DNA of 64,000 bases from Ranitomeya imitator (lineage: Eukaryota): contig NC_091282.1 in assembly GCF_032444005.1 (NCBI RefSeq), positions 476,284,001 to 476,348,000 on the forward strand. The letters are read 5' to 3'. The notes under the pieces are model-generated. The model did not search any database, was not told the origin of the DNA, and saw only the letters and a list, made by a program, of their open reading frames with translations. The translations under genes and the position numbers were made by a program. How positions within the stretch are numbered: position 1 is the first letter of the stretch; every line of letters starts with the position of its first letter. Of this stretch, positions 2,183 through 45,753 are shown piece by piece.

Positions 2183-2662
2183 TTAAAACATAGAAAATTA
2201 ACTCAGGAGAGGAATCCAGAGTAAGGGTTCAGGCTAGCGGGTATTAATCAACCATAATAAGTAGGTGAAATGTTTTTAATTATACACATTTGTACCCATT
2301 GTAGATCCTACATTGCCGATATTAATATAGGTGACAACCGAATTAGAGAAGATTGTTGCCTACATAGGTGCAGAAAATAATAGAAAACTGTTATGTTTAA
2401 AAAAGGTACAACTGAGAATCTTTAGAAAGGGGCAAACATATAAAGATAGATAACATTGGTGTTCAGCTTGTTACGTACCCTTATCAGCGCTGTGCATTGT
2501 ATCACAACCTGCTGAAGTTACATCACACAATCTAAGAATTAAGCCGGTATGATGGCCCCACATCTCCCTACATACAGTATGTCCCCACAACCCCCTATAT
2601 AAAGTAAAATGGCTCAAAGCATCTCTATATCCAGTATAATGGCCCCACAATCCCCTTACATA

Positions 2663-7900: not shown

Positions 7901-10340
7901 TATGGATCCCCATGACTTCTATGTTAGCCCCTGATGAGTATAATGGTTTATTTTCTTTTATACATTACATAACAATGGCATTACGGGGGACAAATATATG
8001 CCAGGATGGGGCACTGGATAGTTATGCAACTGAGGTCACACTATACAACTTTGCAATAAAGCTATAGTGTGCAAAATTAATAGGGAAAATGTGAATTTGG
8101 GTGGAAAATATTTTGGCATGGTGGGGGGGCCCCATTTGAAAGTTTGCATCGGGGCCCATAACTTTGTAGTTACGCCACTGCATACAGGGTGATGTCCCCA
8201 GAGCCCTGCTATACACAGTATGTCCTCACAGCCCCCTATAGACAGTATGTTGTCTCCACAGTCCCTCTATATACAGTATAGCTTCACAACTCCCTTGTGA
8301 ACAGAACAACAGCCCCACAGCTCCTTATAAATAGTATAAGTCCACAGTTCCCTATATACCGTATGAAAGCACCACAGTCCCCTATGTACAGATTGATGGT
8401 CCCACAGCTCCCTACATAAATATGATTGCTCCAAAGCTCCCTATCTACAGTATGATGGACCCACAATTGCTGTGTGGCTCGTCTTCAGTCTGGTCGTTTT
8501 CTGGAGAGGCTCCTCAGTAGGTACAGGCAGCGTCAGGTGAGTTGCGTGACGTCATTCAGCAGATGCGGCTATGCACAGCATTTTGTGTGGCCGCACCTGC
8601 TAGGAGAGCTAGAAGCAGCCACAAACTTTCTACTACAAGTTCTCCTGACAAGTTATACTTGAAAGTCAAAGCAACAAAAAGATCTTGCTCCACCGAAACA
8701 ATAGAGAATACATTCAGCTGCACACAAAAAAATATATATTTCTAATTTTCAAAGAGAAAGACATGCATTGATCTGCACATTGCTTATACTGCGGCTTCTT
8801 TGATAACATTTATTGTTGCATGTTATTATTAGTGTCGCCTCATTTTTCTTTTTTTAATGCGGATATCGCTATATACACCTCTTTATAGCTCATAAAGGTT
8901 TTCCTGAAATGTTAACCTTATGGTATGCATTGATTGTTTTTCCACATTACCTTATGCACTTGCATTTCTTACAGCATCTACTGTTAGCCATTTTATTATT
9001 GGTGTTTGGCATCTATTTTCTTGTTCATCACGTCTCCATAAATACCTAATACTTTACGAGTACCTTCACGACCACAGCTAGCGCAGTTCTGAATGACCCA
9101 GATAGTCTGCATGCGCAGTATTGAAGTCTCGATGCATGCGTACTATTAATGATTGTGACGTGAGAGCATCCCCCAATTCTGGACACTGAGCAGCTTGGAT
9201 ATAGTATGTTCATGTACAATACGGCCCTGGCTAAATCCATACTCCTGGTAACTATAGTTTTTTGATGATCATACTATTTAAGGCACACATACCCCTGGTG
9301 TTTTTGTATTAATAAAAGTGTTATTTGAAAAACTTTCACCATTTTGTAAGAATTTCTTTGTCTTGGAGAATTATGTAGTTATGCTGTAAAGAGGCCGCTG
9401 TACTCTTACAAACAATATGGTGCCTTCAGAAGACAATTGGTGAAGGTGCCAAGAGTCACAACCAACTAGAGAGTGGTGGCTTATCCTAATGATAGGCTAT
9501 CAATAGTCTGATCTTGGAAACCCACTTTTTAATTACCTTTGACAGAAGAGATCAATGTAGGGACTTAAGTACCAATATAATGGCGATGAGTAAGGGTACC
9601 GTCACACAGTACAATTTTGATCGCTACGACGGCACGATTCGTGACGTTCGAGCGATATAGTTACGATATCGCAGTGTGTGACACGCTCCTGCGATCAGGG
9701 ACCCCGCTGTGAATCGTACGTCGTAGCACATCGTTTGAAACTTTCTTTCGTCGTCTAGTGTCCCGCTGTGGCGGCATGATCGCATGGTGTAACAAAGGTG
9801 TGCACGATATTGTATACGATGTAAAGGGCGGAGGAGCTGGCTACGTAGGAGCGCAAAATTCTCCACCTCCCGTGTGCTGATTGGGCGGTACAATACTGTG
9901 CGCTCATTCAACAGACAAAGGACTATTGTTCCAAGCGGATAAAACCGGAGCTGTCGAGCGCTCTATTCATTTCTCTCTGTAGCACGTGCTGGATACAGAA
10001 CTCCTAAATTCGCTGGATTCCCTGTACTTTTATAACTACTACAACTACAGACTTTTACCGCAAAAGGTATGCATAACGCTACAGCGTAGCAGATGTTGCG
10101 CTTCAACGGGGATAAACGCTGGAGCGTGGTCGATTGTTCCTTTATGGAGAGTAGGGTAGGCCAGAGAACCTCAGGTACACAGCTGTAGCGTGGCCCAATT
10201 AATTAATCCTTTTACAGATCGAGATGGTTGACTGCCCCATTTAATACCAGTAGTAACATATATAGTTATTAGATCAATGGTCAGAACATTGTTTTGTAAG
10301 CACGTGTATTTATTGTACATTTGTTTTATTTTTAGGAACT

Positions 10341-12083
10341 ATGCTCACTTCCGATGAGAGTTCTGTTGTTGCTGCTGCCCTGGTGTTTGAGGCAGCACGT
10401 CTCCAAGAAGAGAGACGTCCTAAACGAAAACGTCGCATGTGGACCCGGAGCTGGCTGCAGAAAAGATCCACATTGTCACACATGGGTCTCATAAGAGAGT
10501 TACATGACAATAACCCTCATGATTTCCGAAACTACCTTCGGATGTCCGAGGAATCCTTCAAAATAATACTGTCTGCTGTTACGCCACTCATACAAAGGCG
10601 TGATACGCCGATGCGTGCAGCCGTGCCCGTGGATGAAAGGTTGGCGGTGACACTGCGGTTCCTGGCAACAGGAAGGTCTCTTCAGGATTTGCAGTTTTCC
10701 GCAGCTGTTTCCAGACCTTTCCTGAGCGTTGTGATTCCGGAGACATGCGAGGCCATTGTGCACAGCTTAAGGCATTATATGGAGGTACTACTATATTATT
10801 TTGGCTGTTGTGTTATGTCGATATATTATACTAGCTATTTAACCCGTTCTACGCCCTGGTTGCGCGCATTTCTATTGGTATATGTTCTACATCCTATCAT
10901 GTGCTGCTCCCATCCTGCGCCCCCATTCTGACATGTGCTGCTGCGATCCTGCGCCATCCTGCGCCTCCATTCTGACATGTGCTGCTCCCATTTTGCGGCT
11001 CCATTCTGACATGTGCTGCTCCAATCCTGCGCCACCCTTCTTTTATTTGCTGCTCCCAACGTAATTTAATAGGTTATATTATTTTAATATATTGTTTTGC
11101 ACCCCCTCTCAGTCAGTGAAGCCGTCTGATAAAATGGCTGCCTGCATATTCTGGATTGTTGACTATAACTTTGTTATACTAATCAAAACTGTGCGTCAAT
11201 CACTCTAGGATGTCCACATGAGAGTGTATGTGCACAACAATATATTTGACCTAATTTGTACATGTTTCCTTCTCATCTTGCAGTTTCCCAAGACGGCGGA
11301 GGACTGGAAGAAGATTGCTTCCGATTTTGATCAGCTGTGGCAGTTTCCAAACTGCGGTGGTGCATTAGATGGAAAGCATGTGCGCATCACGCAACCAGCC
11401 AACTCTGGATCCTTTTTTTTCAACTACAAAGGATATTTCAGTGTGATCCTCATGGCCCTTGTCAATGCGAACTATGAGTTCGTCGATGTGGATGTTGGCA
11501 TGAATGGTCGAGTCTCCGACGGTGGAGTTTTTGAACACACTTCATTTGGGGAAAGCTTAAGGAACAATCAACTGCAGTTGCCAGTAAATGAAGACACAAA
11601 AGCAAACCTCAATTTTGTTTTCATCGCAGACGAAGCTTTCCCTCTTCATCCACATTTGCTGAAGCCATTTGCACAGAGAACACTCACACCGGAGCGCCGA
11701 ATCTATAATTACCGGTTGTCGAGGCCCGTCGTGTGGTTGAAAATGCCTTTGGGATTATGGCTAATCGGTTTAGAGTGTTCCACACAGCTATCAACTTGAA
11801 GCTGCCGTCTATAGACTTTGTGGTTTTGGCATGCTGTGTGCTCCATAATTTCCTGAGACATCATGATACGAGCTCCTATTCTCCTCCTTCGTTTATTGAT
11901 GCAGTGGACCCAAGAACCGGAGATATTGTGCCCGGGGAATGGCGTACACAACCTGATAATTTAACAGCTCTTCAAGCACTTGGATCTGGCAGACAGGCAG
12001 ACGATGCAAGGGACTGTCGAGAAAAATACTGTTAGTACTTTAATGGTTCTGGAGCTGTACCCTGGCAGGATCGCGCCGTATAA
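10341..12083 (+). pseudogene. Harbinger (HARBI1-like, DDE_Tnp_4) transposase, two coding exons, one frameshift and one late stop
   Basis: Exon 10341-10784 (GAG|GTACTA), intron 10785-11283 (ttccttctcatcttgcag), exon 11284-12083. Motifs: ERLAVTLRFLATG (HTH), GALDGKH, FIADEAFP, RVVENAFG. A 1-bp loss at ~11722-11725 (agg[g]cccgtcgt) and TAG at 12033-12035, 16 codons before the natural TAA. About 414 aa if repaired. Confidence 0.9.
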
Positions 12084-12538
12084 AAAAAATATTTCTTTTT
12101 GTTTTGCTGTTTACTCAACAATATGTATGTTATGCTTTCGTGTCCACAATGTAAATTTGCGAGTAGGTCACTGTCTTTTCTGTAATAAAATTAAATTGTA
12201 TTTATTTCTCCCGTTATTGTTGATTGTTCATTTTAGATACTACGTTATAGCGGTCGGTCTATATTGCATTCCAAAGTCAAATGTTGACTTCCTTCCATTC
12301 CAAGCTCTGCCATGCACACAAACAAAGGTGTACCCACACAGAATCGTATTTTCAATCATATAAACCTCTGTAAATGACTTAAAATGTGATGAGATGCCTA
12401 AAAAATAGTGTTGTAAACCCTTATAGCTCCATAAACATTAAATAATGAGAATTTTTGTTTTTTAGATAACAATTTCTTTATATGTAACAATCTAACTCCA
12501 AAATATAACATAACAAAAAAAACAATAAAAAAGAAAAA

Positions 12539-14235
12539 TTATCTTCTTCCACGGCCCAACAGGTGTCGCAGCATCACGCCCTGCTGCTCAACTTGAGCCT
12601 GGAGGAGCGCTGCTGTCTGCTGCAGGAGCGCTGCTGTACGCTCCAGGCGCAGTTGTCTGGCCAGGAGCTCTCTCACGGTGGGCGGTTCTGTGGATAGAAG
12701 AGGTTGGAGAACTGATGGTGATTCCGCTGAAAATACCTATCGACCTCTGTTGCTGGACCAAATTGAGTGTGTTGTAAATTTCTATTTGGTCCGGGCACAC
12801 AGGGCTTTTTTTTTTTTAAATTAAATTTTACAGTTTTTGTTGTCAATTGTGACATTCCACCGAGATATCCACTCGTATTATCTTAATACTTACGGAGAAG
12901 GGATGCCGGTTCTTCATTGCCAGAACCAGTACTGCTTATTTCCCATCCATGACATCTGGCCACTGCTGCTAAAAGGAAATAATAACAGATCTGTTTAACT
13001 ATGGAACACGCCGTTGCAAAGCGCTCGCTGTTTTTGTCACTTACGTATGGTAGCTTCTGGGGAGAAGGCCGCCGACCCGGGGGAGGAAAATGAGGGCCGG
13101 AAGGGAGGTGTTGAGGGTGGTGTTGGGGTGCGAGGCCGCATGGTCAATAAACATGTTGAGGTCCCGGGCTCTGGGCTGCCGCTGGTGGCGGATGAAGGAG
13201 AGCTTGTCTCAATGAGAGGTGCCTGTTGCCGGCGCCTTCTCTCTACACATAAATGAAACAAACAAAATGTTTAGACATTTCTATACTGTATGTTGTAAAC
13301 CAAGTGCAGAGCAAAGGGAATCATTTAAACCAATACGGTTCCTGCTTTAATTAGTCCTAAAATTCAAAGGGAATGAACGCTGTGTTCTGATCGTGTTTTG
13401 CAGCAGCATTTGGAGAAGTTGTAACAGAGAAGCTTGTCTTTTATATGTGTAGTACTGTGTGTGCTCCATATTGTGTGTTCCGTACGATGTGTACGTGGTA
13501 CTGTGTGTGGCACGGTGTGTACGTCGTTGTGTGTGCGGCGCTGTGTGTGCTCCGTATTATGTGCGACACGGTGTGTATGCCGCAGTACTAGAAGAGCATC
13601 ACGGCTGTGCGCGTCTACTGATTAGCTGCCATTATTTCTCCTCCGGGCACTGTGCGCGCAGGATAATGTATACAATATGTACGCTACACTGTTATGTCAC
13701 CTATGCTATAATTACATTTCTATGAGTGATGGTACACTTACGTGAGGTCCTGGGCTGTGGCCTGCTGCTGTTGGTGGATGAAGGAGAACTGGCAGCAATG
13801 GCAGGTCTGTGTTGCTGTCGCCTTCTCTCTACAGATAAATGAAAGAAAAGCAATGTTTTAAAAACAAAGAACAGGGATTCCAGAGCCCCCCCCCAAAAAA
13901 AAATAGCCCGCAGGCCTACCTCCTCATAAAAGCGTGCATCGCCCAATTCCCCCATACTGGTACTTGCCTCGCCTTGTCTCCGCACGCAACTCAGCAAGAA
14001 GGTGTGGATTTTTGTGTCGGAGGTCGGCCCATTTCTTACGCAACTGCTGCGCACTCCGGCGGACGCCAAACCTCCTATCCAGCATTTGGACAATGCGACG
14101 CAGCACCTCCTGCTTATGTTGGTTCGGGTGTGCTGGGAGAGTCTTCTGGCACTCATAATCAAGTGCATCCATGCGATGTACCAAAAACCGGAGCTCGGTG
14201 TGCCCCAAAGGGGCAGATCTCTGTCTTCCAGCCAT
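12539..14235 (-). CDS. Harbinger accessory gene 1: Myb/SANT-like DNA-binding + C-terminal coiled coil, 5 exons, 258 aa, apparently intact
   Basis: Exons 14235-13968 (GC donor GAG|GCAAGT), 13828-13742, 13242-13045, 12968-12894 and 12687-12539. All introns are phase 1 and the frame is open from MAGRQRS to LLGRGRR*. N-terminus contains ELRFLV...RSAQQLRKKWADLR; last exon reads VRELLARQLRLERTAALLQQTAALLQAQVEQQ. Confidence 0.8.
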
Positions 14236-14520
14236 TACAGATAAAAAGACGCTATAAAGCAGCACCTAACCACACCCAGAGGAAGTCCTTAACTGTGCAG
14301 TTCTCCCGCGCGATCCGCATCGCTATAGCGTTGCCGTTTATGGACAGCGTCACATTTGTGACGGCTGAGCGCTACAGAAGGAACGCACATAGTAAATGAC
14401 GTTCGAACGATGAAGATATAACGCCGGTGCGGCACGTAATGTGCGCTCGTGGTATATGACGGCGTGATGACGTTACAGCGTTCCTGCGCTACCTTGCTTT
14501 GCTTCCCTGACATCCTTAAA

Positions 14521-17500
14521 ATGGCTGCCAGGCGACGTGATCCTCCTATGGGTGTCCCAGAGCTAAAGTTCATGATTACCACTATGGATCAGATGCAGTA
14601 TGAAACCACAGGGCTGGTGCTGCACCGCAACCAGCACAAGGATGAAGTCGTACGTGTGGTGTCTGAGGGCCTCAGGAAGCAGTTTGGGATAACAAGAAGT
14701 AAGGCCCAGATTGTGAAGAAATGGGGAGATCTTAAATCAAAAAGCCCAGCGCGCCTGCAGGAGCTTCGCCGTGAGATCCGCAGTGGTGAGTACGCAGGTA
14801 CCCAAAAGTATTGCACGGCGAAGGGTTAATTGGGTGTGTATGTGGTGTGTATGTGGCCCTGCTATGGTGCAATAATGAAAGGAGCAGAGCACTATGTGGC
14901 CCTGCTATGGTGCAATAATGAATGGTGCAGAGCACTATGTGGCCCTGCTATGGTGCAAAAATGAACGGTGCAGAGCACTATGTGGCCCTGCTACGGTGCA
15001 ATAATGAATGGTGCCGAGCACTATGTGGCCCTGCTATGGTGCAATAATGAACGGTGCAGAGCAGTATGTGGCCCTGCTGTGGTGCAATAATGAATGGTGC
15101 CGAGCACTATGTGGCCCTGCTGTGTTGCAACAATGAAAGGTGCAGAGCACTATGTGGCCCTGCTATGGTGCAATAATGAATGGTGCAGAGCACTATGTGG
15201 CCCTGCTATGGTGCAACAATGAAAGGTGCAGAGCACTATGTGGCCCTGCTATGGTGCAATAATGAATGGTGCAGAGCACTATGTGGCCCTGCTATGGTGC
15301 AATAATGAAAGGTGCAGAGCACTATGTGGCCCTGCTGTGTTGCAACAATGAAAGGTGCAGAGCACTATGTGGCCCTGCTATGGTGCAATAATGAATGGTG
15401 CAGAGCACTATGTGGCCCTGCTGTGGTGCAATAATGAATGGTGCCGAGCACTATGTGGCCCTGCTGTGTTGCAACAATGAAAGGTGCAGAGCACTATGTG
15501 GCCCTGCTATGGTGCAATAATGAATGGTGCAGAGCACTATGTGGCCCTGCTATGGTGCAACAATGAAAGGTGCAGAGCACTATGTGGCCCTGCTATGGTG
15601 CAATAATGAATGGTGCAGAGCACTATGTGGCCCTGCTATGGTGCAATAATGAAAGGTGCAGAGCACTATGTGGCCCTGCTGTGTTGCAACAATGAAAGGT
15701 GCAGAGCACTATGTGGCCCTGCTATGGTGCAATAATGAATGGTGCAGAGCACTATGTGGCCCTGCTGTGGTGCAATAATGAATGGTGCAGAGCACTATGT
15801 GGCCCTGCTGTGTTGCAACAATGAAAGGTGCAGAGCACTATGTGGCCCTGCTATGGTGCAATAATGAATGGTGCAGAGCACTATGTGGCCCTGCTATGGT
15901 GCAACAATGAAAGGTGCAGAGCACTATGTGGCCCTGCTATGGTAAAATATCACTGTTGCCATATCTGCTGATCGAACGTTATTTTTTCCTTCACAGACGC
16001 AAAGACACACCGACGCCGCCACGAGGCATCCCACACCGCCTCAGATATCGCTGTGCCCTCCGGGTCAACGGCTCAACAACCCAGTAGGTTCACCCAATAA
16101 TGTGATTAGGATTTGTTGTAAGGTCCCCTCTACCCCCCCTCCACCTGCAGTCACTGTTGCCATTTATGTAAAAAAAATTTTTTTATTTTTTCCCCTCACA
16201 GAGGCAACGACACAGCGCTGCAGCCACGAGGCTTCCCACCCCGCCTCAGATGTCCGTGCGCCCTCTGGGTCAACGGCTCAACAACCCAGTAGGTTCACCC
16301 AATAATGTGATTAGGATTTGTTGTAAGGTCCCCTCTCCCCCCCCCCACCTGCAGTCACTGTTGCCATTTATGTAAAAAAAAATTTTTTTATGTAAAAAAT
16401 TTTTTTTTATTTTTTCCCTTCACAGAGGCAAAGACACAGCGCCGCCGTCGAGTTTACCAGGCCTTTGACACGGACTCTGATCCAGAGTTGCCCTCCGTGC
16501 CTACAGATCCTAGTAGGTTCCCACAATAATGTGATTAGGTTTTGGTGGCAGGTCCCCTCTTCCCCCCCCCCCCCACCTGCAGTGACTGTTGCCATTTATG
16601 TAAAAAAAATTTTTTTTTCCCTCACAGAGGCAACGACACAGCGCCGCAGCCACGAGGCTTCCCACCCCGCCTCACATGTCCGTGCGCCCTCTGGGTCAAC
16701 GGCTCAACAACCCAGTAGGTTCCCACAATAATGTGTTCCGGATTTGGTGGCAGGTCCCCTTCCCCCCCCCCACAACTGCAGTCACTGTTGGCATTTATGT
16801 TAAAAAAAAAAAAAATGTTTCCCTTCACAGAGGCAAAGACCAAGCGCCGCAGCCATGAGGCTTCCCACCCCGCCTCACATGTCCGTGCGCCCTCTGGGTC
16901 AACGGCTGAACAACCTAGTAGGTTCCCACAATAATGTGTTCAGGATTTGGTGGCAGGTCCCCTCTTCCCCCCCCCCCCCACAACTGCAGTCAATGTTGGC
17001 ATTTATGTTAAAAAAAAAAAATTTTTTCCCTTCACAGAGGCAAAGACACAGCGCCGCAGCCACGAGGCTTCCCACCCCGCCTCACATGTCCGTGCGCCCT
17101 CTGGGTCAACGGCTGAACAACCTAGTAGGTTCCCACAATAATGTGTTGAGGATTTGGTGGCAGGTCCCCTCTCCCCCCCCCCCCCACAACTGCAGTCACT
17201 GTTGGCATTTATGTAAAAAAAAAAAAAAAAAAAAAAAAAATTTCCCTTCACAGAGGCAAAGACAGCGCCGCAGCCACGAGGCTTCCCACCCCGCCTCACA
17301 TGTCCGTGCGCCCTCTGGGTCAACGGCTGAACAACCTAGTAGGTTCCCACAATAATGTGATTAGAAATTGGTGGCAGGTCCCCTCTTCCCCCCCCCCTCA
17401 ACTGCAGTCACTGTTGCCATTTATGTTAAATATTTTTTTGTTTTTTTCCCTTCACAGAGGCAAAGAAACAGCGCAGCCACCCCGAGGCATCCCAGTCACC

Positions 17501-17908
17501 GCAGTACTGGCCCCCTGATGCTCTTCCGGAGAATATGACCCCAGACGAGGTCTTGCCACGTAAGTTTTTCCAACTCGCTTAAGATTGTCACTCACTGCAT
17601 CTCTCTATGTAACCCTGTACATCAAGGGCCGTTTCAGAGCCTTCCGCCGCCTCAGATGTTTCATTCATCCTTTACGCTATTATGGGGAAGTGATCACAGC
17701 CCACTATCTGGATAATACTGTGGTATTAATGTTATGTTTTTATGCTTTCTCAACAACAGCAGCCGGCAGTGTGACCATCGTAGATGTTAAAGCCAGGATT
17801 GAAAGGCTGTGCGTGACTCTGGCGCAGATTCAGGAGCAGCAGAATCTGGCAATCGGAGAGTTGATTAAGATTAAAGACATGTGCCAACTGTTGGAGGCGG
17901 GACAATAA
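14521..17908 (+). CDS. Harbinger accessory gene 2: Myb/SANT-like + tandem 87-nt cassette exons + coiled coil
   Basis: Exon 1 is 14521-14785 (G|GTGAGT). Cassette exons are 15997-16083, 16202-16288, 16426-16512, 16628-16714, 16831-16917, 17038-17124 and 17254-17338 (85 nt, frameshifted). Then 17458-17559 and last exon 17760-17908. 345 aa if the 85-nt copy is skipped. Confidence 0.75.
14851..15943. repeat. 43-bp minisatellite, ~25 copies, in intron 1 of accessory gene 2
   Basis: Unit gcagagcactatgtggccctgctatggtgcaataatgaatggt. The variant pattern repeats at a 344-bp (8-unit) offset, e.g. 15121 vs 15465. Confidence 0.95.
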
Positions 17909-18157
17909 TACATATTAATACCGGGTTAAAAATTTTTTTGTTGTTACATTAAAAAAATTTAGTTAAACTATGATTCATTTTTTTTGTATTAGTTAAATGT
18001 ACATGACTTTGTTACGTTAATTTGTGCCCTCATACAGTGCTGTGATCGAGACACACCAATCAAACAGTCGTGATAGAATTTCAAAGAAAAGCTTTTATTT
18101 AACACATTATGTTAACAAGACAATAAAAAAAAAAGTAATGTAAAATAAGTTAGGAAA

Positions 18158-18402
18158 TCACAAATCGTGATACGCCGATTCTTCCGGCTGATAACTTGGG
18201 TGCCTGATGGGCGAAGCCATATGTGAAGGTATTGGCGTGTAGGAGTTAGGGGGTGGCTGGCCGAAGTGGGAAACGGGAACATTGTGTCGCATTGGTGTCT
18301 GACACTGTGACCAACCATTATAATATGAGGGCTCTGTCCGCTGCATTGGCCGGGAAGAGACCAAACGAGTGTGCTCGTCCAAATTGCCATCTGTACCCTT
18401 GT
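18158..18402 (-). pseudogene. Orphan 3' fragment of the MADF gene left by internal duplication
   Basis: Nine differences in ~250 nt versus 19978-20237. It reads ...EHTRLVSSRPMQRTEPSYY...EESAYHDL* and is cut at 18402, where sequence homologous to 14433 resumes. Confidence 0.85.
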
Positions 18403-18498
18403 CACGTAATGTACGCTCGTGGTCTATGACGGCGTGATGACGTTACAGCGTTCCGGCGTGCCTGCGCTAGCTTGCTTTGGTTCCCTGACATCTTGATA

Positions 18499-19763
18499 AT
18501 GGCTGCCAGTCGCCGTGATCCTCCTATGGGCATCCCAGAGCTCAAGTTCCTTATTGGAACAATGGATCGGATGCAGTACGAGACAACTGGGCTGGTGCTG
18601 CACCGCAACCAGCACAAGGATGAAGTTGTCCGTGTGGTGTCTGAGGGCCTCAGGAAGCGGTTTGGGATAACTCGCAGCAAGGCCCAGATTGTGAAAAAAT
18701 GGGGCGATCTCAAGTCCAAAAGCCCAGAGCGCCTGCAGGAGCTTCGCAAGGAGATTCGCAGAGGTCAGTACGCAGGTACCCAAAAGTATGTGGCACAGCT
18801 ATGGGGCAGTTTGAACGTTGCAGAGCCACTATGTGCCACAGCTATGGGGCAGTATAAACGTTGCAGAGCCACTATGTGCCACAGCTTGAACGTTGCAGAG
18901 CCACTATGTGGCACAGATATGGGACAGTTTGAACGTTGCAGAGCCACTATGTGCCACAGCTATGGGGCAGTATGAACGTTGCAGAGCCACTATGCGGCAC
19001 AGCTATGGGACAGTTTGAACGTTGCAGAGCCACTATGTGCCACAGCTATGGGACAGTATGAACGGTGAAAAGTACTATGTGGCACAGCTAACTGCAGACC
19101 TACCTTTTTTTTTTCCTTCACAGAGGCAAAGACACAGCACCACCGCCGCCACGAGGCATCCCGCACAGCCTCTTCTGGATCTGTGCCCTCTGGGTCAACT
19201 CCTCCAGATCCTAGTAGGTTCCCACAATTATGTGATTTGGATTCAGTTGCAGGTCCCCTCTTCCCCCCCCCTCCCCCGGCAGCCAGTGTTGCCATATATG
19301 CTAACAGACCTTTTTTTTTTTTTTTCCCTTCACAGAGGCAAAGAGACAGCGCCGCCGCCGACAGCACGAGGCATTCAACATGGACTCTGATCCCGAAGTG
19401 CCCTCCGTGCTTCAACATCCTAGTAGGTTCCCACAATAAAGTTATTTTGATTTTGTGGCAGGCCCACTCTTTCACCCCCAACCCAAACACCACCCCCCCC
19501 CCCAAGTCAGTATTGCCTTATATGCTGACTGTTTTTTTTTCTTTTTTCCTTCACAGAAGCAAAGACACATCGGGAGACTACAGAGTTATTAATGTTATGT
19601 TTTTTGACCCACAGCTGTCGTCAGTGTGAACAAGGAGGATCTTGAAGCCGGCATAGAAAGGCTTATCCACACTATGGCGCGGATTCAGGAGCAGCACAAT
19701 GTGGCAATGGAGGAGCTGCAGAAGCTTTGGGACATGTGCCAGCAGTTGGAGGCGGGCCAATAA
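18499..19763 (+). CDS. Harbinger accessory gene 3: paralog of gene 2, 4 exons, 196 aa
   Basis: Exons 18499-18763 (G|GTCAGT), 19124-19213, 19336-19422 and 19615-19763, all phase 1 and in frame. A vestigial cassette start lies at 19557. Confidence 0.75.
18786..19090. repeat. 43-bp minisatellite, ~7 copies, homologous to 14851-15943
   Basis: Unit gcagagccactatgtgccacagctatggggcagtatgaacgtt. It aligns to the gene-2 intron unit with compensating 1-bp indels. Confidence 0.85.
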
Positions 19764-19992
19764 TACATTTTTGGTTGTTACATTAAAAATATTTAGTTAA
19801 ACTATGATTCCATTTTTTTTGTATTAGTTAACTGTACATGAATTTGTTACGTTAATTTGTGCCCTCATACAGTGCTGTGATCGAGACACACCAATCAAAC
19901 AGTCGTGATAGAATTTCTAATAAAAGCTTTTATTTGAAACATTATTTTAACAAGACAATAAAATAAAAAGTAATGTAAAAGAAGTTAGGAAA

Positions 19993-20902
19993 TCACAAAT
20001 TGTGATACGACGATTCTTCCGGCTGATAACTTTGGTGCCTGATGGGCGAAGCCATATGTGAAGGTATTGGCGTGTAGGAGTTAGGGGGTGGCTGGACGAA
20101 GTGGGAAACGGGAACATTGTGTTGCATTGGTGTCTGACACTGTGACCAACCATTGTAATATGAGGGCTCTGTCCGCTGCATTGGCCGGGAATAGACCAAA
20201 CGAGTGTGCTTGTCCAAATCGCCATCTGTACCCTTGTTTACTGCTTCCAATATTAGACGCTCCGCTAGTGTTCTTTGGCTGTCGTCCATTTTGGCCAGTT
20301 TGTCAACAACATAGTGTCCAAACCCCTGCAACGCAGGGCTAACATTGTTTGTTAACACCTTTTTTGCAAGGCTCAACAGTTCATGTGAAACGTTTGAGGT
20401 GGCTTTCCGTTTCCTTGGACCTTGCCTCGATTGAGTCCTGGCAGGTGCCGCCTCCACTAAATCTGTTGTCGTGCAGTCCTGTGAACAGTCCAGTGTACTG
20501 TCCTGCGCACTGTCATCCTGGGGGAAAAAAAAAAAAAACAAGTTACGAACCTGGCAACAAAAAGTTTGACCACCATAACCGCATCCAAACTATATATTCG
20601 TAGTAGGTAAAAAAAGGTTGTAATATATTTTAAGCTTAGTAATATTCTTTAACCTTCCCATTTATTTAATACTTTTAACTACACTGTTCTGACTGCTAGG
20701 GGAACCTGATTAATATTTTATAGTCTAAATAGTCTCAACAAGAGTACATCGGCAGCTTGAAGCGATACTATTTTCTATAGTGGCACGGTGGCACGGTGGC
20801 GCAGTGGTTAGCACAGCAGCCTTGCAGCGCTGGAGTCCTGGGTTCAAACCCCACCAAGGACAACATCTGCAAAGAGTTTGTATGTTCTCTCCGTGTTTGC
20901 GT

Positions 20903-20933
<31 letters not shown>

Positions 20934-21694
20934 ACATTCCAAAGACATACTGATAGGGAATTTAGATTGTGAGCCCCATCGGGGACAGCAATGATAATGT
21001 GTGCAAAATGTAAAGCGCTGCGGAATATGTTAGCGCTATATAAAAATAAAGATTATTATTATATTGCTTAGATGGTATGGTTTAGAAATATCGCCATTTC
21101 ATACATATTATGTTCCCCATATAATACTTTACTGCGACAGGGTTACTTATGTGGACATGTTTTTGTAATAACTTCAAACTGATGTGATAATCAGAAGTAT
21201 AAAACATAAAATGCAGAGAAAAATTATGTAATTATAGGACACATTGGTGAACTTTCGTCCAAAGAGCTACTTACTTGTTGCCCTTGTGACTCCTGCTCGG
21301 CGTGGTTCTCCGAAACAATTTGTTCCACAGGTGCCAACAAGCGAAAACACGTGGAAGTCCGTGGCACCTCTTGGTCCCTCAGAAAATTCAGATGTTCAAA
21401 ATACCAAAGCTTTGGCACATAAACATCTTCGGTGGAAGCCCCGGACTTTGTAGTGTGAAGAACCTTGTTAAGCTCCTTCCTCCACACCGTGCGGAGCGCC
21501 TGAATTTTCTTTTTAATAACCGCTTTGTTTGCTGGCTCTTCTGGTGCATGACGATTGTAAAGCTCAATGAGCTTTAAATAACCCTCCTGCCTCTTTTCCC
21601 TGTTACAATACTCTGGAGATTTGATTTTCCAGAGGCAGGGAAAAGACTGGTATATTTCGATGAATTCCCTGATGAATTCCACACGATTTGACAT
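19993..21694 (-). CDS. Harbinger accessory gene 4: MADF-domain protein with BESS-like C-terminal motif, 2 coding exons, 314 aa
   Basis: Exon 21694-21275 (FIEIYQSFPCLWKIKSPEYCNREKRQEGY...KKKIQALRTVWRKEL...YVPKLWYFEHLNFL; CAA|GTAAGT) and exon 20517-19993 (after poly-T cccccag; FGHYVVDKLAKMDDSQRTLAERLILEAV). Phase 0, frame open. Confidence 0.85.
20782..21062 (+). mobile_element. tRNA-derived V-SINE in the MADF gene intron
   Basis: A box ggtggcgcagtggttagc, B box gggttcaaaccc, V-domain gagtttgtatgttctctccgtgtttgcgtgggtttcctccgggcactccggtttcctcccacattccaaagacat, and an (ATT)n tail. Confidence 0.85.
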
Positions 21695-21819
21695 CTGAAA
21701 AATAATTATAAAAAAAAAAAAAATTACACGGTTGACAAAGAGTCCTTTAAACAATACTTTTGCCAGTGTGCCAAACGCTTAACAACAACAGCCACACAAA
21801 GAGCTCATGCCTACCATCC

Positions 21820-22490
21820 ATTGTTCCATCTGCCACGCCATAGGCCACCATAACCCAAAACAGTGTACCGCCTGCTTCACTACAGCAGCCACACAAATCG
21901 CTCATGGTGACCATACATTGTACCATCTGCCACGCTGTAGCTCACCAGACACAACCAGTCACAACAGCGTACCATCCGCATCGCTTCAGCGGCGGAACGA
22001 AGCGGTCATGCCGACCAAACAGCGTTCCATCTACCACGCTCTAGCCCACCAGTCACAACCAGTCACAACAGCGTACCATCCACATCGCTTCAGCGGCGGA
22101 ACGAAGCGGTCATGCCGACCAAACAGCGTTCCATCTACCACGCTCTAGCCCACCAGTCACAACCAGTCACAACAGCGTAACATCCGCATCGCTTGTTTCA
22201 TCTGCCACACCATAGGCCACCATAACCCAGAACAGTGTACCGCCCGCTTCCATACAGCAGCCACACAAAGCGCTCATGGTGACCATACATTGTACCATCT
22301 GCCATGCTGTAGCTCACCAGACACAACCAGTCACAACAGCGTACCATCCGCATCGCTTCAGCGGCGGAACGAAGCGGTCATGCAGACCAAACAGCGTTCC
22401 ATCTACCACGCTCTAGCCCACCAGTCACAACCAGTCACAACAGCGTACCATCCGCATCGCTTCAGCGACGGAACGAAGCGCTCATGACGA
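21820..22490. repeat. Nested direct repeats in the right subterminal region of the Harbinger element
   Basis: A ~370-bp duplication (21821 vs ~22194) containing ~100-bp units cagcgtaccatccgcatcgcttcagcggcggaacgaagcgg...cagtcacaaccagtcacaa. Confidence 0.85.
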
Positions 22491-25000
22491 CAGTACATCG
22501 TTCCATCCACTATGCCCAAGCGGTGTAACATACCTCGAAGCTGCGGTGCAAAGCGTGGAATATTCTGTGAAATACTGAATCCGATGTCCTAGTCCAACAA
22601 GTGTCCAAGTACAAAGTGAAGAAAGGAAATTTTGAAACCGGTGAGGTGGCTTGGAAACAATAGCGCTCAGGTGACAAATTTTCCAACCAATTGTGTGCAC
22701 AGAACCTGTGGCCTATCAGCACATAGCTAGCAGCTCGACACGCCCCCTAGTGAACAACGTCACGCACAGATTATGCAAAATTTGCTCTGAATCGTCTTGT
22801 GTGACACGACCGTACGACTGTCCCATACGACTTCTACATCGCAAATATGTCATGAAATTATCGCTCCAGCGCCGTACATCGTGAAGTGTGACCGCAGTGG
22901 AGCGATAATTAAGCGACGATGTAACGTCACAAATCGTGCCGTCGTAGCGATCAAAATTGCACTGTGTGACGGTACCCTAAGTAAGAAACAAGTCAGATGT
23001 TCTACTAGTCTGTGGACCTGTTACCACAGCTAGATGGTGGATATCTTCAGGAGAAATCAGTGGGCAAGTTGACCGACTGCCAGCACATAAGTATAATCTA
23101 TACTAATACTTTCCACTAATACAACTCTAAATGGCTTCATTCCAAGATGGGGCACATCTGAATGCAGGCATGCTGACTATGGCCATAATGTCCACGTCAC
23201 TTTCCCAAAGAATTATATAAAAGCTAGAATACCTCAGCATTTGGCAGACATGCCGTTACTGTAACACCTCAGCATGCGATTATCTGTCCCTCCCTTTGTA
23301 TTACAGCTCGTTCCTGAAATGCTCTGCTTCCTCTAGCCCCAGTGAGGAACTATCCCTGCCTTGCCCACTCCTTTTCCTGATATACACCCAACTGGTGATC
23401 AATCTCATCTTACCTCACAGCATCCACGCCTAGCAGGCATCTTGCCAATTCAACCCGTCTCTTGACTTTTTGCTGAACACACATTATGGCAGGGCCGAGC
23501 TTCACACATGTAAAAAGGCAAAAAGATTTAATTCACTATACTACAAATGCTTTATGCCTGGAAATCTACACTCACAAGGGCACTTCAATCTCTGCTGATC
23601 CACTGCAGTGAGCTCACACCCGGAGCATATAGCAGTATTGTAGACGAACCTCTGCAGCATTTTAGTCTTTGGGGCCTATCATCAAGACTGGCATAGCGTA
23701 CGTTCATACTATGCGAGTCTTCCCAGCATGCAAGGCACTGAATTCATTAAGAGGAACATGCTCATCTTCTTGGTGGCCTGCATTGCACCAGAAATGGCTA
23801 CTCCAGGCAGGGATTGCAGAAGCATTTCTGGCATCCATAACGTCAGCATTATTGATGAATTTGAAGAGCGGTTGTGTCCACGCCCTTGTCCCGCCATGGT
23901 TCCACCAATTTTAGCTGATTCCAACACTAAGTCGCAAAATTTTTGTGCAACACACCAAAAATGTTGCGACCTTTTACAGATTGATAACTTAGCCCCTATG
24001 TTTCATGGATGGATAAAAAATGTTACTAGAAAATCTTGCAATAGTTTTTTTTCCGTCAGTTTATTAAAATATTAATTCAGTTATTGTTGACTAATGACAA
24101 TACCATTAGTAACCAAATTGATTAAATCTAGAATTCACTATTCATTGATAAAATGTATCCTATATTACTCTCTTGCTACACTTCCATTTCAGGAGTCTGT
24201 AAAACCTAAGTGAAAACTCTGTGATATTGATATATTGAACCAGTGGAGAGCTTGTACTAACTCAAGGTATGGCTCAGTGACTAGCACTAGGGTCCTGGGT
24301 TTAAATCCCACCAAGAACATCATCTGCAAGTAGTGTGCATCACGCGTTGCAACCTTTTATCAATTTTTTTCCATTGAGATTAGCTAGTGTCAAGGGTTGT
24401 AAACTTCTTGATTAGAATGTGCACCCATTGACAAAGGAACATCAAGTTCTCTGGAGATGGACATGTAACCCTGAGATTGTTGATATTTTTCAACAATTTT
24501 AGTCCTCAGACAGTTCCCTTTTCCGCTTAAGGTTCTCCCTGGTTAGTGTGGCACACACAGACACAATATGCAAACATTGAGTCAACTTCCCCTCTTTCTA
24601 TCGGTTTTCAGGTTTGATTTTCATATTGCTCAGACCTGTTACTTGCCATAGATGAGATTGGAGATTGAATGAGCATCACATGCTTAAAACAAAGTTGGGA
24701 AATGTGCCAATAACTTTGTCCTGGTCCATTTTGGGTTTTTTGTGTGAAATGATGTCCAATTTGCCCTTTTTTTAAATTTTTTTAATTTTATTTTTTTACA
24801 ATCTGTGTATAACAAAACATGTGTGATTGCAATCATCTTCTGGGAGAAATACTTCCTTTTCTGGCACAATTTCAAGGGCGACAACACTTTCGGCCATAAC
24901 TGAATTATTCAAAATTCACAGTTTCAAAACTTTTATGCCATTTACCACACTCCTTTTTAACCACCAGACCCCTGACAGAGACATCTAGAATAAGAGCAGA

Positions 25001-26710
25001 TACTGAAAACACAAATTTTCAGGCATGGACTTTAAGAACAGTTTTAAACTAATTTGAGGGTGCTGAATTCAAATCTGATCTTATAATTTCTCTATCACAT
25101 CACATTTTTGCGCTATATGTATATAGCCCATTTTCATGAATTCCATGATAAATATAAGTAGTGTATGAAAAGTGCCGGTTTATACTGTTCACTAAGGTAA
25201 ATTTAATTTTCATTTATTCTCCCAATAAATGTGCGAATATCTTTGTTTTCTTTGAACATGCATAATTCCAATTTGTTATGATAACACCCTTGTTTTCTGT
25301 GCTACTGGGACAGTAGAGCTACAGCAGAGCATTGGGTGAAAACTGAATGGCCTCAGCGACAGAGTTTGGCATCTGGCGATAAGAATGTCATCCATGATCC
25401 TCTAGTGGCTAGGAAGGACATTGTCTTTCCTCCCTTACACATAAAACTTGGATTGATGAAGCAGTTCGTCAAAGCTCTAAATCACAGTGGAGAATGCTTT
25501 AACTATATATGTTTAACTTTTCCTGGTCTTAGTGAAGAGAAGAAAAAGGCTGGAATATTTGATGGACCTCAAATAAGAACACTTATGAGAGACCCAAATT
25601 TTATCACATCAATGAATGTGACAGAAGAAAGAGCTTGGAATGCATTTTGTAATGTGGTGCAGAATTTTCTAGGGAATAAGAAAGCAGACAACTATGAAGA
25701 GAACGTGGAAGAGCTACTAATGAGTCTGCAAAATCTTGGATGTAGAATGAGTATCAAGATTCACTATTTACACAGCCATTTGGACTTTTTTCCAGAGAAA
25801 CTTGGGGATGTGAGCGAGGAACAAGGGGAGCATTTTCATCAGGACATTAAAACAATGGAAGAACGGTATCAAGGCCGGTGGGACTCACATATGATGGCTG
25901 AGTATAGCTGGAGCTTGATGAGAGACAATACAGAAGCTGAACATCACAGATCAGCCAAGAAAAGAAAGTTCAAATAACTGCCATTTGTCATTCATCTGTG
26001 TGCCATATATATGTGTTTTTATATTTTGTAGTTTAATTCTGTAAGGATATTTGATTTGCTGTACATAGACTTTGTAATCTTTGTTATTCCTTGAGTAAAA
26101 ATATACAAAATGTAGTACCGAAAATCATGTGTTTTTATCAGCAGCCAAAATTGACTTAAAATATGTTTTAGTAACATAGTAACATAGTAACATAGTTAGT
26201 AAGGCCGAAAAAAGACATTTGTCCATCCAGTTCAGCCTATATTCCATCATAATAAATCCCCAGATCTACGTCCTTCTACAGAACCTAATAATTATATGAT
26301 ACAATATTGTTCTGCTCCAGGAAGACATCCAGGCCTCTCTTGAACCCCTCGACTGAGTTCGCCATCACCACCTCCTCAGGCAAGCAATTCCAGATTCTCA
26401 CTGCCCTAACAGTAAAGAATCCTCTTCTATGTTGGTGGAAAAACCTTCTCTCCTCCAGACGCAAAGAATGCCCCCTTGTGCCCGTCACCTTCCTTGGTAT
26501 AAACAGATTCTCAGCGAGATATTTGTATTGTCCCCTTATATACTTATACATGGTTATTAGATCGCCCCTCAGTCGTCTTTTTTCTAGACTAAATAATCCT
26601 AATTTCGCTAATCTATCTGGGTATTGTAGTTCTCCCATCCCCTTTATTAATTTTGTTGCCCTCCTTTGTACTCTCTCTAGTACCTTTTGCCAGAAAAATT
26701 GCGTTGACCA
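25001..26710 (+). mobile_element. Internally deleted Chapaev3-like (CMC/Transib-related) DNA transposon with intact transposase C-terminus
   Basis: ORF 25336-25977 has PPLHIKLGLMKQFVKAL, GIFDGPQIR and KIHYLHSHLDFF...VSEEQGEHFHQDI...RYQG. Imperfect ends tactgaaaacacaaattttcaggca / tgccagaaaaattgcgttgaccattg. Family assignment is from recalled motifs. Confidence 0.6.
26171..26680 (-). mobile_element. 5'-truncated CR1 LINE inserted in the Chapaev-like element
   Basis: ORF 26285-26638 reads RLAKLGLFSLEKRRLRGDLITMYK...GFFTVRAVRIWNCLPEEVV (CR1 ORF2 end), with an 8-bp (CTATGTTA)n 3' tail at 26171-26196. Confidence 0.9.
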
Positions 26711-27616
26711 TTGTAATTACACCAAGCATACAGGATAAAAGTGTGGAGCTGTGTATATTATAATATATAGTGTGCAGCACCGGCGTCTATGCCTGCAGTC
26801 CCTCTGCCCCTGTAGAGACGCGAGCGTACTCTCCACCATGGTCTCCGTCCTGCTCCTTCTGGGTCTGCTGCTGCTACCCGGGGGGCATGCACTACATGCA
26901 GGTCCCCGGGCACTGTGCTTAGGGCGTGCGCACACTTCCTCTTTCTTAAAGGGGCCACGCGAGTTCCTCTAAAATGTCCCCAGCCAATAGCTGGATGACA
27001 CAATTTAAAGCACCTCCTCCAACATGGAGGTGCCTGTGCAATGTTGTGAGTTTGTTTCCTAATACTTGTGAGTTCTCAGAACCTAGTGCTCGTATCTCAG
27101 CCCGCTGCACCAGCCAGTTCTCATCTCAACGGCAGCCAGTCCAGTTGCAACTGCCAGTGCTTATATCAACAGCAGCCAGTCCCGCTGCACCTGCCAGTGC
27201 TCCTTTAAATGGCAGCCGGTCCAGTTGCACCTGCCAGTACGGCAGCCGATCCAGTTACACCTGCTAGAGCTCATCTCAACGGCAGCCGGTTCTGCTGCAC
27301 TTGCCAGTGCACTTCTGCGGTACCTGCCATTTTACTCCGTCTGCCTGCATCTGTTGGACATACCCACGGGCCCTCCAGCTACCGGTTCCTAGGGGTCAGC
27401 TGCCATCAACGCAAGGTCAGGCCTGGAGCAGCATCTGGACTACTTCTCTTGTCTTTCCTTGGATCTCGGCATTGTTAGCTGCTGCGTATTCATGGTCAGA
27501 TTGGGTGAGGCTCCTAGTCACTCCCCTCCAGGTCTTCCTTGGGCATCGGCACAGTGGTTTCACCACCCAGCCCGTTAAAGTGTGGAACCTGTGTATATAG
27601 TATGAAGCTCTATATA

Positions 27617-29223
27617 CAGTGGGGCAAAAAAGTATTTAGTCAGTCAGCAATAGTGCAAGTTCCACCACTTAAAAAGATGAGAGGCGTCTGTAATTTACAT
27701 CATAGGTAGACCTCAACTATGGGAGACAAACTGAGAAAAAAAAATCCAGAAAATCACATTGTCTGTTTTTTTAACATTTTATTTGCATATTATGGTGAAA
27801 AATAAGTATTTGGTCAGAAACAAACAATCAAGATTTCTGGCTCTCACAGACCTGTAACTTCTTCTTTAAGAGTCTCCTCTTTCCTCCACTCATTACCTGT
27901 AGTAATGGCACCTGTTTAAACTTGTTATCAGTATAAAAAGACACCTGTGCACACCCTCAAATAGTCTGACTCTAAACTCCACTATGGTGAAGACCAAAGA
28001 GCTGTCAAAGGACACCAGAAACAAAATTGTAGCCCTGCACCAGGCTGGGAAGACTGAATCTGCAATAGCCAACCAGCTTGGAGTGAAAAAATCAACAGTG
28101 GGAGCAATAATTAGAAAATGGAAGACATACAAGACCACTGATAATCTCCCTCGATCTGGGGCTCCACGCAAAATCCCACCCCGTGGGGTCAGAATGATCA
28201 CAAGAACGGTGAGCAAAAATCCCAGAACCACGCGGGGGGACCTAGTGAATGAACTGCAGAGAGCTGGGACCAATGTAACAAGGCCTACCATAAGTAACAC
28301 ACTACGCCACCATGGACTCAGATCCTGCAGTGCCAGACGTGTCCCACTGCTTAAGCCAGTACATGTCCGGGCCCGTCTGAAGTTTGCTAGAGAGCATTTG
28401 GATGATCCAGAGGAGTTTTGGGAGAATGTCCTATGGTCTGATGAAACCAAACTGGAACTGTTTGGTAGAAACACAACTTGTCGTGTTTGGAGGAAAAAGA
28501 ATACTGAGTTGCATCCATCAAACACCATACCTACTGTAAAGCATGGTGGTGGAAACATCATGCTTTGGGGCTGTTTCTCTGCAAAGGGGCCAGGACGACT
28601 GATCCGGGTACATGAAAGAATGAATGGGGCCATGTATCGTGAGATTTTGAGTGCAAACCTCCTTCCATCAGCAAGGGCATTGAAGATGAAACGTGGCTGG
28701 GTCTTTCAACATGACAATGATTCAAAGCACACCACCAGGGCAACGAAGGATTGGCTTCGTAAGAAGCATTTCAAGGTCCTGGAGTGGCCTAGCCAGTCTC
28801 CAGATCTCAACCCTATAGAAAACCTTTTGGAGGGAGTTGGAAGTCCGTGTTGCCAAGCGAAAAGCCAAAAACATCACTGCTCTAGAGGAGATCTGCATGG
28901 AGGAATGGGCCAACATACCAACAACAGTGTGTGGCAACCTTGTGAAGACTTACAGAAAACGTTTGACCTCTGTCATTGCCAACAAAGGATATATTACAAA
29001 GTATTGAGATGAAATTTTGTTTCTGACCAAATACTTATTTTCCACCATAATATGCAAATAAAATGTTAAAAAAACAGACTATGTGATTTTCTGGATTTTT
29101 TTTTCTCAGTTTGTCTCCCATAGTTGAGGTCTACCTATGATGTAAATTACAGACGCCTCTCATCTTTTTAAGTGGTGGAACTTGCACTATTGCTGACTGA
29201 CTAAATACTTTTTTGCCCCACTG
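27617..29223 (+). mobile_element. Young full-length Tc1 (DD34E) transposon, copy 1
   Basis: TA|cagtggggcaaaaaag...ctttttttgccccactg|TA with ~230-bp TIRs. ORF starts at 27984 with WSDETK, QHDND and NPIEN (34 residues between D and E). An extra T at ~28824-28827 shifts the C-terminus. Confidence 0.95.
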
Positions 29224-29474
29224 TATAATAGGATGTACCATGTAGTATATAGTGCGTGCACTATGTACACAGCTCCACACTTTATATTATGCAAACAGGT
29301 ATTGTCACGGTTTTACCATGATAGAGAGGAGCCAGAAGACAGCAGCATCTGATTTCTCCTACTCCTGCACTGCTTAGAAGCACTCCACCTTCATATTAAA
29401 CAGTGCAGGTTTCTTTTAGCATTGCAGGAGTAAAACTGCTCAGTTGAGAGCTCTTGGAAACTTTTGTGCATTAA

Positions 29475-44225: not shown

Positions 44226-44312
44226 CATGGTGGCTCAGTGGTAAGCACTACAGTGCTGGGGTCCTGGGTTCAAATCCCACCAAGGACAACATCTGCAAGG
44301 AGCTTGTATGTT
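44226..44312 (+). mobile_element. 5' fragment of V-SINE
   Basis: ggtggctcagtggtaagcac...gggttcaaatcccaccaaggacaacatctgcaaggagcttgtatgttct, fused directly to a Tc1 TIR interior. Confidence 0.75.
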
Positions 44313-45745: not shown

Positions 45746-45753
45746 TATATATA

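What the first reader, a model, noticed from the sequence alone, without database searches (positions are those of the whole stretch)
17760..19763. Opposite selective signatures in two domains of the duplicated accessory genes
Seen (hand count, gene 2 vs gene 3): the Myb exon has 19 silent-only versus 9 replacement codons out of 88. The terminal coiled-coil exon has 5 silent-only versus 20 replacement codons out of 48, with no indels or stops and with hydrophobic positions broadly retained. Inference: both paralogs stayed functional, DNA recognition is constrained, and the interaction surface diversified. This would fit partner specialisation or conflict with host silencing factors.
Basis: partly seen in the sequence, partly recalled or inferred. 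Interest (0 to 1): 0.75.

Follow-up and report, generated by a model that had tools for sequence, protein, structure and literature searches.

The report
Fused frog transposon, ordinary domain constraint
The two 'duplicated' genes are versions of one helper gene from two subfamilies of a frog DNA transposon that were recently joined end to end, and both of their domains are conserved by selection (the tail helix only less strictly), so this is likely ordinary protein evolution rather than an arms race.

Summary
The counts are exact (Myb exon 19 silent/9 replacement of 88; terminal exon 5/20 of 48) and the exons differ (Fisher p=0.0008). But 20:5 is what neutrality gives: pairwise dN/dS is 0.59-0.73, never above 1. 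With 80 distinct genomic copies the terminal exon is under purifying selection (internal-branch omega 0.46, p=0.001 against 1; Myb 0.14), and no site or branch-site test finds positive selection. Heptad core positions are as constrained as Myb (0.15); change falls on outer positions. The signatures are strong versus weak purifying selection, not opposite. The genes are also not paralogs that specialised. They sit in a 13.4-kb Harbinger transposon whose copies normally carry one such gene. Only 6 copies carry both, fused at a 2-bp microhomology, and single-gene parents already show the same 19/9 and 5/20 counts. Two of the six share a stop early in gene 3's terminal exon. Of side interest: the element has three Myb/MADF accessory genes, shuffles modules between subfamilies, and shows purifying selection inside one genome.

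The parts
9591..9648 (+). TAA target-site duplication (9591-9593) and left terminal inverted repeat (9594-9648) of a Harbinger element
   Evidence: 55-bp inverted match to the right end with 2 mismatches
10341..12070 (+). Harbinger transposase gene, two coding exons (10341-10785, 11284-about 12070); frameshifted near 11723 in this copy only
   Evidence: Pfam DDE_Tnp_4 E=4.5e-18 and 9.7e-08; the frameshift is absent from 6 of 6 other copies readable at that place
12542..14235 (-). gene 1: older, inverted Myb-like + terminal helix gene (Myb exon about 13969-14235, terminal helix 12542-12685)
   Evidence: Myb_DNA-bind_5 E=5.7e-05; one splice joint of a relative
14521..14785 (+). gene 2 Myb-like exon (88 codons), subfamily type 2
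   Evidence: (Myb_DNA-bind_4 E=0.014, below cut-off)
15993..17559 (+). gene 2 linker: tandem about 205-bp intron-exon units, each with a short phase-1 exon, ending in the penultimate exon 17458-17559
   Evidence: family D6; P0001 model; copy number varies between elements
17760..17908 (+). gene 2 terminal exon, heptad-patterned helix, type 2
   Evidence: joint 17559>17760
18161..18400 (-). 3' fragment of the MADF gene, the cut end of the left (type 2) parent element
   Evidence: (D18, 96%)
18401..18402 (.). fusion junction, 2-bp microhomology shared by the left (type 2) and right (type 3) parent elements
   Evidence: the junction occurs 6 times in the genome
18499..18763 (+). gene 3 Myb-like exon (88 codons), subfamily type 3
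19124..19422 (+). gene 3 linker exons 19124-19213 and 19336-19422
   Evidence: joints 19213>19336 and 19422>19615
19615..19763 (+). gene 3 terminal exon, heptad-patterned helix, type 3
19993..21694 (-). MADF-domain gene (exons about 21277-21694 and 19993-20520)
   Evidence: MADF_DNA_bdg E=4.3e-16
22923..22980 (-). right terminal inverted repeat (22923-22977) and TAA target-site duplication (22978-22980)

Best explanation
Genes 2 and 3 are one accessory gene of a Harbinger DNA transposon, taken from two diverged subfamilies and joined recently in a fused element, likely by a template switch, and both domains evolved under purifying selection, with the terminal helix constrained mainly at its predicted coiled-coil core. 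Shown: element anatomy, single-gene parents, the junction, the omega values and splicing into both terminal-exon types. Inferred: the Myb-like domain binds element DNA, the repeat-exon linker is a flexible spacer, and the terminal helix oligomerises through its a/d core (with itself or with the similar helix of gene 1) to help recruit or regulate the transposase, so its outer face and ends are freer to drift. The second copy in the fused element is probably redundant cargo.
For: Anatomy: TIRs, TAA duplication, DDE_Tnp_4, MADF and Myb hits. Of 101 loci examined (100 fetched plus the window), 79 have one Myb and one terminal exon and 6 have two of each; the junction pattern occurs 6 times genome-wide, against 341-346 candidates for the terminal exon. 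Each half of the doubles is about 99% identical to single-gene type 2 or type 3 elements. The parent types give the same 19/9 and 5/20 counts, and no change is shared by all six doubles. Codon models: terminal exon internal omega 0.41 on 43 sequences and 0.46 on 80 (95% about 0.29-0.73, p=0.0014); the path between type 2 and type 3 0.43 (p=0.006); Myb 0.14. 0 of 59 neutral simulations reached 0.46 or lower, and the two other sense frames give 1.25-1.39. Heptad classes, internal omega: a/d 0.145 (tips 1.03), e/g 0.34, b/c/f 0.55, ends 1.4. Positive-selection tests: M1a/M2a p=1.0 and 0.85, M8a/M8 p=0.39 and 0.29, branch-site p=0.48. Gene 1's helix shows the same weaker constraint (0.38). Candidate partners hardly differ between the types: gene 1 helix 1 replacement, MADF domain 1, transposase dN about 0.02 or less. 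Myb and terminal types recombine (Myb2+term3 in 2, Myb3+term2 in 3 of 79). Frog relatives keep Myb plus a terminal heptad helix with no conserved helix sequence.
Against: 48 codons give little power: sites 12, 18 and 17 fall in a class with omega 1.26-1.35 (posterior 0.84-0.99), although the tests are not significant. The estimate depends on the model (F1x4: internal 0.55, p=0.013; path 0.52, p=0.031), and the window pair alone is not distinguishable from neutral (p=0.3-0.4). Loci were picked from top hits of similarity searches, mostly with terminal-exon proteins, which can lower that exon's omega. The heptad register was set by eye after seeing the alignment, so the a/d result is partly circular. 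The models are my own implementation, with branch lengths fixed up to scale in the site tests. The Myb exon shows some internal recombination (PHI-type p=0.005 at one window size, 0.11 at the other). The Myb-like hits for genes 2 and 3 are below Pfam's cut-off.
Confidence: 0.82

Rival explanations
1. Host conflict: the terminal helix contacts a host silencing factor, and a few exposed residues (12, 17, 18, possibly 5-7) are driven by diversifying selection on top of a conserved core.
For: Sites 12, 17 and 18 carry 3, 4 and 5 amino-acid states shared by two or more sequences and fall in the omega 1.26-1.35 class; the exon ends have internal omega 1.4. An Arabidopsis study predicts more host contacts for TE accessory proteins and coiled-coil oligomers of the anti-silencing factor VANC (PMC13547354, passages).
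Against: All five positive-selection comparisons on this exon are non-significant; the ends are not different from 1 (p=0.59). The same paper reads the higher dN/dS of accessory proteins as relaxed purifying selection. No host partner is known.
Confidence: 0.1
2. Partner specialisation after gene duplication: genes 2 and 3 diverged as paralogs in one element and now bind different partners.
For: Both reading frames are intact in the window, and the double element has spread to 6 sites.
Against: Divergence is fully present between single-gene elements; no substitution is shared by all doubles; 2 of 6 share a stop at codon 10 of gene 3's terminal exon, one has a stop in gene 2's Myb exon and one an internal deletion of gene 2.
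Confidence: 0.03
3. The terminal exon is functionless and drifts neutrally.
For: The window pair is compatible with omega 1; a stop at codon 45 occurs in 16 of 109 rows, including young multi-copy subfamilies.
Against: Internal omega is below 1 on 80 sequences, and a/d positions are at 0.145 with tips at 1.03. The codon-45 stop removes only four residues. Spliced joints enter both exon types.
Confidence: 0.05

Closest known systems
PIF/Harbinger DNA transposons (Harbinger3_DR type; transposase plus Myb/SANT-like protein)
   Same: TWA target duplication, TIRs, DDE_Tnp_4 transposase, Myb/SANT/MADF accessory genes. Published passages say that the Myb-like proteins are far more divergent than transposases, with similarity limited to parts of the Myb domain (PMC9179366, PMC9392472), which is the pattern seen here.
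   Different: Described as having two ORFs (PMC4482050). This family has four genes (transposase, two Myb+helix genes, one MADF gene), five in the fused copies. A sister family in the same genome has three. Recombination between families is called rare in fish; here modules are exchanged often between subfamilies of one family.
TE accessory proteins under relaxed purifying selection (Arabidopsis VANC, TnpA and others)
   Same: Higher dN/dS than core enzymes and coiled-coil oligomerisation domains (PMC13547354 passages).
   Different: No sequence relationship was tested or found; no anti-silencing function is shown for the frog protein.
Chimeric DNA transposon families formed by inter-element recombination (Anolis)
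   Same: New families arise by recombination between copies (PMC3014272 passage).
   Different: That passage highlights non-autonomous copies; here the fusion duplicates a coding gene.

Membership tests
PIF/Harbinger | 5'-TWA-3' target-site duplication | tested here: met
   TAA at 9591-9593 and 22978-22980; feature from PMC4482050
PIF/Harbinger | terminal inverted repeats | tested here: met
   55 bp, 2 mismatches
PIF/Harbinger | DDE transposase of the DDE_Tnp_4 family | tested here: met
   E=4.5e-18; frameshifted in this copy, not in 6 others
PIF/Harbinger | second gene with a Myb/SANT (MADF) domain | tested here: met
   MADF E=4.3e-16 and gene 1 Myb_DNA-bind_5 E=5.7e-05 pass the cut-off; genes 2 and 3 hit Myb_DNA-bind_4 only weakly (E=0.014, 0.024)
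PIF/Harbinger | usual two-ORF layout | tested here: not met
   four genes per element, five in the fused copies; the source says 'most' elements, so this is a variant rather than an exclusion
PIF/Harbinger Myb-like protein | binds element DNA and the transposase N terminus | not testable with these tools
   function taken from PMC9392472's account of Sinzelle 2008; which of the three accessory genes fills this role is open
Positively selected conflict gene | omega above 1 at sites or on lineages | tested here: not met
Coiled-coil domain | heptad hydrophobic pattern with a constrained core, and oligomer formation | tested here: inconclusive
   3-4 pattern over residues 6-44, by eye; a/d omega 0.145; weak Pfam LOH1CR12 match E=0.0013; no structure or complex model obtained

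The most novel reading that the evidence does not exclude
Frog Harbingers run a multi-subunit accessory system (two Myb+coil genes plus a MADF gene) whose modules are swapped between co-resident subfamilies and kept under purifying selection inside a single genome, contrary to the rule that DNA transposons drift neutrally within genomes; a few exposed residues of the coil (12, 17, 18) are being diversified against a host silencing factor.
Probability: 0.1. Interest if true: 0.6.

Novelty: new variant of a known kind. Interest (0 to 1): 0.2.

Why it matters
The selection contrast itself matters little: a conserved DNA-binding domain with a looser helical tail is the described pattern for Harbinger accessory proteins. 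What could matter is the context. A young, high-copy, transcribed Harbinger family with three accessory genes and frequent module exchange is a natural system for asking what extra accessory genes do, and why purifying selection is visible on a cut-and-paste element within one genome (PMC7070016 reports neutral evolution of DNA transposons within vertebrate genomes, by a different, pairwise method).

Tried and rejected
Positive selection on the terminal exon: M1a/M2a, M8a/M8 and a branch-site model on the type 2-type 3 path, all non-significant. Wrong reading frame as the cause of the replacement excess: rejected by P0001, by splice joints, and by omega in other frames (the antisense frame that shares third positions mirrors the sense result, as expected). 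Recombination inside the terminal exon as the source of the intermediates: PHI-type test p=0.8-0.9. Estimator bias: neutral simulations. No run holding the stretch is on record as RNA (guesses only); the joints come from contigs and cannot be assigned to this copy. Earlier scan notes: three look-ups returned nothing. Literature: nine searches gave no paper on dN/dS of Harbinger accessory-gene domains or on a four-gene frog Harbinger; Repbase and subscription journals were not searchable, and a third ORF in some Drosophila PIF-like elements is recalled, not checked (one search found nothing). No supplements were read. The label 'BESS-like' for the MADF gene's C-terminal helices was recalled and got no Pfam support.

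Full report
Observation. The hand counts are exact: 19 silent-only and 9 replacement codons of 88 in the Myb exon, 5 and 20 of 48 in the terminal exon, Fisher p=0.0008. Raw codon counts ignore that about three quarters of sites are non-synonymous. Per site, the Myb exon has dN 0.068, dS 0.458 (ratio 0.15) and the terminal exon dN 0.283, dS 0.388 (0.73; bootstrap pN/pS 0.41-1.66). Neutral mutation with the same 36 base changes gives on average 21.5-22.9 replacement codons. Maximum-likelihood pairwise values are 0.08-0.10 and 0.59-0.67, the latter not different from 1. From the window alone the terminal exon is therefore neutral-looking, not positively selected.

What the locus is. Window 9594-22977 is a 13.4-kb Harbinger DNA transposon: 55-bp terminal inverted repeats, TAA duplications on both sides, a DDE_Tnp_4 transposase, and a MADF gene at the far end. 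Between them lie gene 1 (minus strand) and genes 2 and 3 (plus strand), each a Myb-like exon, a linker of short tandemly repeated exons, and a terminal heptad-patterned helix. The identical gene 2 protein is on record as a poison-frog gene model (P0001, labelled Ranitomeya imitator). A wider search found 27 relatives; the ten looked up are all from frogs. Fourteen aligned proteins share the Myb domain and a terminal amphipathic helix, with no conserved helix sequence. Contigs from public runs guessed to be RNA join 17559>17760 (2 of 4 runs) and 19422>19615 (2 of 4 runs) across GT..AG, so family members splice into both terminal-exon types in the frame used; the copy of origin is unknown. The window's own transposase has a private frameshift.

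The 'duplication' is a fusion of two subfamilies. I fetched 100 copies, chosen across the hit lists of own-genome searches (fetched). Of 101 loci including the window, 79 have one Myb and one terminal exon, 14 have a terminal exon without a Myb exon in the stretch, 2 have one Myb and two terminal exons, and 6 have two full genes. The junction sequence occurs exactly 6 times in the genome. The left half matches single-gene type 2 elements and stops inside the MADF gene; the right half matches single-gene type 3 elements from their promoter on; the join is a 2-bp microhomology. A template switch during gap repair is the likely cause (inference). Single-gene type 2 and type 3 elements differ by the same 19/9 and 5/20 codons, and no substitution is shared by all six doubles. 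Two of six doubles share a stop at codon 10 of gene 3's terminal exon, one has a stop in gene 2's Myb exon, and one has lost the middle of gene 2. The divergence arose in separate elements and says nothing about specialisation of paralogs.

Selection with more sequences. I fitted GY94 codon models (own code; trees from IQ-TREE per exon; stops and indel codons masked). First set, 61 loci: terminal exon 43 distinct sequences of 69 rows, internal-branch omega 0.41 (p=0.001 against 1); Myb 42 of 59 rows, 0.13. Full set: terminal exon 80 distinct sequences of 109 rows (duplicates and rows under 75% covered dropped), internal 0.46 (95% about 0.29-0.73; p=0.0014), tips 0.70, path between the two types 0.43 (p=0.006). 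Myb, 72 of 93 rows (3 frameshifted rows, one disrupted row and duplicates dropped): internal 0.14, path 0.10. One shared omega is rejected (p about 1e-4; p=0.0008). With F1x4 frequencies the terminal values rise to 0.55 (p=0.013) and 0.52 (p=0.031). Controls: 0 of 59 neutral simulations gave 0.46 or less, and the other sense frames give 1.39 and 1.25. Positive selection was not detected: M1a/M2a p=1.0 and 0.85, M8a/M8 p=0.39 and 0.29, branch-site p=0.48. Sites 12, 18 and 17 are the most variable and fall in a class with omega 1.26-1.35, which is the residue of the conflict hypothesis; power on 48 codons is low. By heptad position (register set by eye after viewing the alignment), internal omega is 0.145 at a/d, 0.34 at e/g, 0.55 at b/c/f and 1.4 at the eight end residues; a/d tips are at 1.03, as expected for decay after insertion. 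The predicted contact stripe is thus the conserved part. On the 61-locus set other segments give internal omega: gene 1 helix 0.38, gene 1 Myb 0.32, MADF domain 0.10, transposase segments 0.14-0.21, MADF tail 0.69 (p=0.09), penultimate exon 0.72 (p=0.57). The terminal exon sits between folded domains and linkers, as a simple helix would.

Partners. Between single-gene types 2 and 3, the gene 1 helix differs by 1 replacement, the MADF domain by 1, the MADF C-terminal helices by 0, and the transposase core by dN 0.01-0.02, while the terminal exon differs by dN 0.27. Myb and terminal types also occur in mixed combinations. Both facts argue against lock-and-key co-evolution with an element-encoded partner. 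A host partner is untested.

Comparison with what is known. Harbingers are described with TWA duplications and, in most cases, two ORFs (PMC4482050; passages). The Myb-like protein binds the ends and the transposase, and is much less conserved than the transposase outside parts of the Myb domain (PMC9392472, passages; PMC9179366, passages and section 4.2). Higher dN/dS of TE accessory proteins is read as relaxed purifying selection in Arabidopsis (PMC13547354; passages). Inter-element recombination creating families is reported in Anolis (PMC3014272; passages). PMC9710019 and PMC12973397 were seen as passages only and add nothing specific. PMC7070016 (passages) reports neutral evolution of DNA transposons within vertebrate genomes by pairwise Ka/Ks; the low internal-branch omega here (neutral simulations never below 0.42 for the transposase segment, observed 0.14) may reflect the different method, or transfer and introgression among related frogs. 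A sister family in the same genome has three genes, transposase, Myb+helix and MADF, in 5 of 5 copies fetched, so gene 1 versus gene 2 is the real, old duplication. My nine literature searches found no description of this layout, but Repbase was not searchable.

Verdict. It is strong versus moderate purifying selection in a gene pair brought together by a recent fusion. Interest 0.2, mostly for the multi-gene, recombining element rather than for the selection contrast.

Noticed in passing
window 9594-22977 and loci L001-L060: The family's standard layout has four genes (transposase, inverted Myb+helix gene 1, Myb+helix gene 2/3, MADF gene), with genes 1 and 2 facing away from each other across about 290 bp; canonical Harbingers are described with two.
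   Followed up: partly
L101, L103, L105, L107, L109: A sister Harbinger family (transposase 61-79% identical by segment) has three genes: transposase, one Myb+helix gene on the same strand, and a convergent MADF gene.
   Followed up: partly
L001-L100: Extensive mosaicism: Myb exon, terminal exon, 3' UTR, MADF gene and gene 1 switch subfamily independently (identities to the window from about 68% to 100%) while the transposase stays 90-100% identical.
   Followed up: partly
transposase, MADF and Myb segments across loci: Purifying selection on internal branches (omega 0.10-0.21) within one genome, and a ladder-like tree of the terminal exon, unusual for a cut-and-paste element whose proteins act in trans.
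   Followed up: partly
window 15993-17559: The linker is built of about 205-bp intron-exon units with symmetric phase-1 exons; the number of units varies from about 1 to 9 between copies, so protein length is variable.
   Followed up: no
terminal exon codon 45 in L021-L024, L041-L050: The same nonsense change, four residues before the end, is present in both type 2-like and type 3-like multi-copy subfamilies (16 of 109 rows): recurrent or exchanged, and tolerated.
   Followed up: no
L014, L015, L018, L034, L038, L039: Older copies carry an extra or relocated, opposite-strand gene 1 Myb exon inside gene 2; a protein labelled Ranitomeya variabilis (P0002) joins a gene 3-type Myb to a gene 1-type body, suggesting domain swaps between genes 1 and 2.
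   Followed up: no
window 19557-19614: Gene 3 has a truncated exon remnant without a donor; RNA joints skip it (19422>19615).
   Followed up: partly
window 14850-15945 and 18787-19090: 43-bp minisatellites fill intron 1 of genes 2 and 3.
   Followed up: no
window 27613-29227 and 53561-55181; 2649-3970 and 44309-45759: Two pairs of Tc1-like elements with long inverted ends: a near-identical pair (98-99%) and an inverted pair about 89% alike.
   Followed up: no
window 25285-25977 and 26285-26716: Open frames resembling other transposon remnants (a transposase-like stretch and the end of a CR1-like reverse transcriptase; labels recalled, not searched).
   Followed up: no
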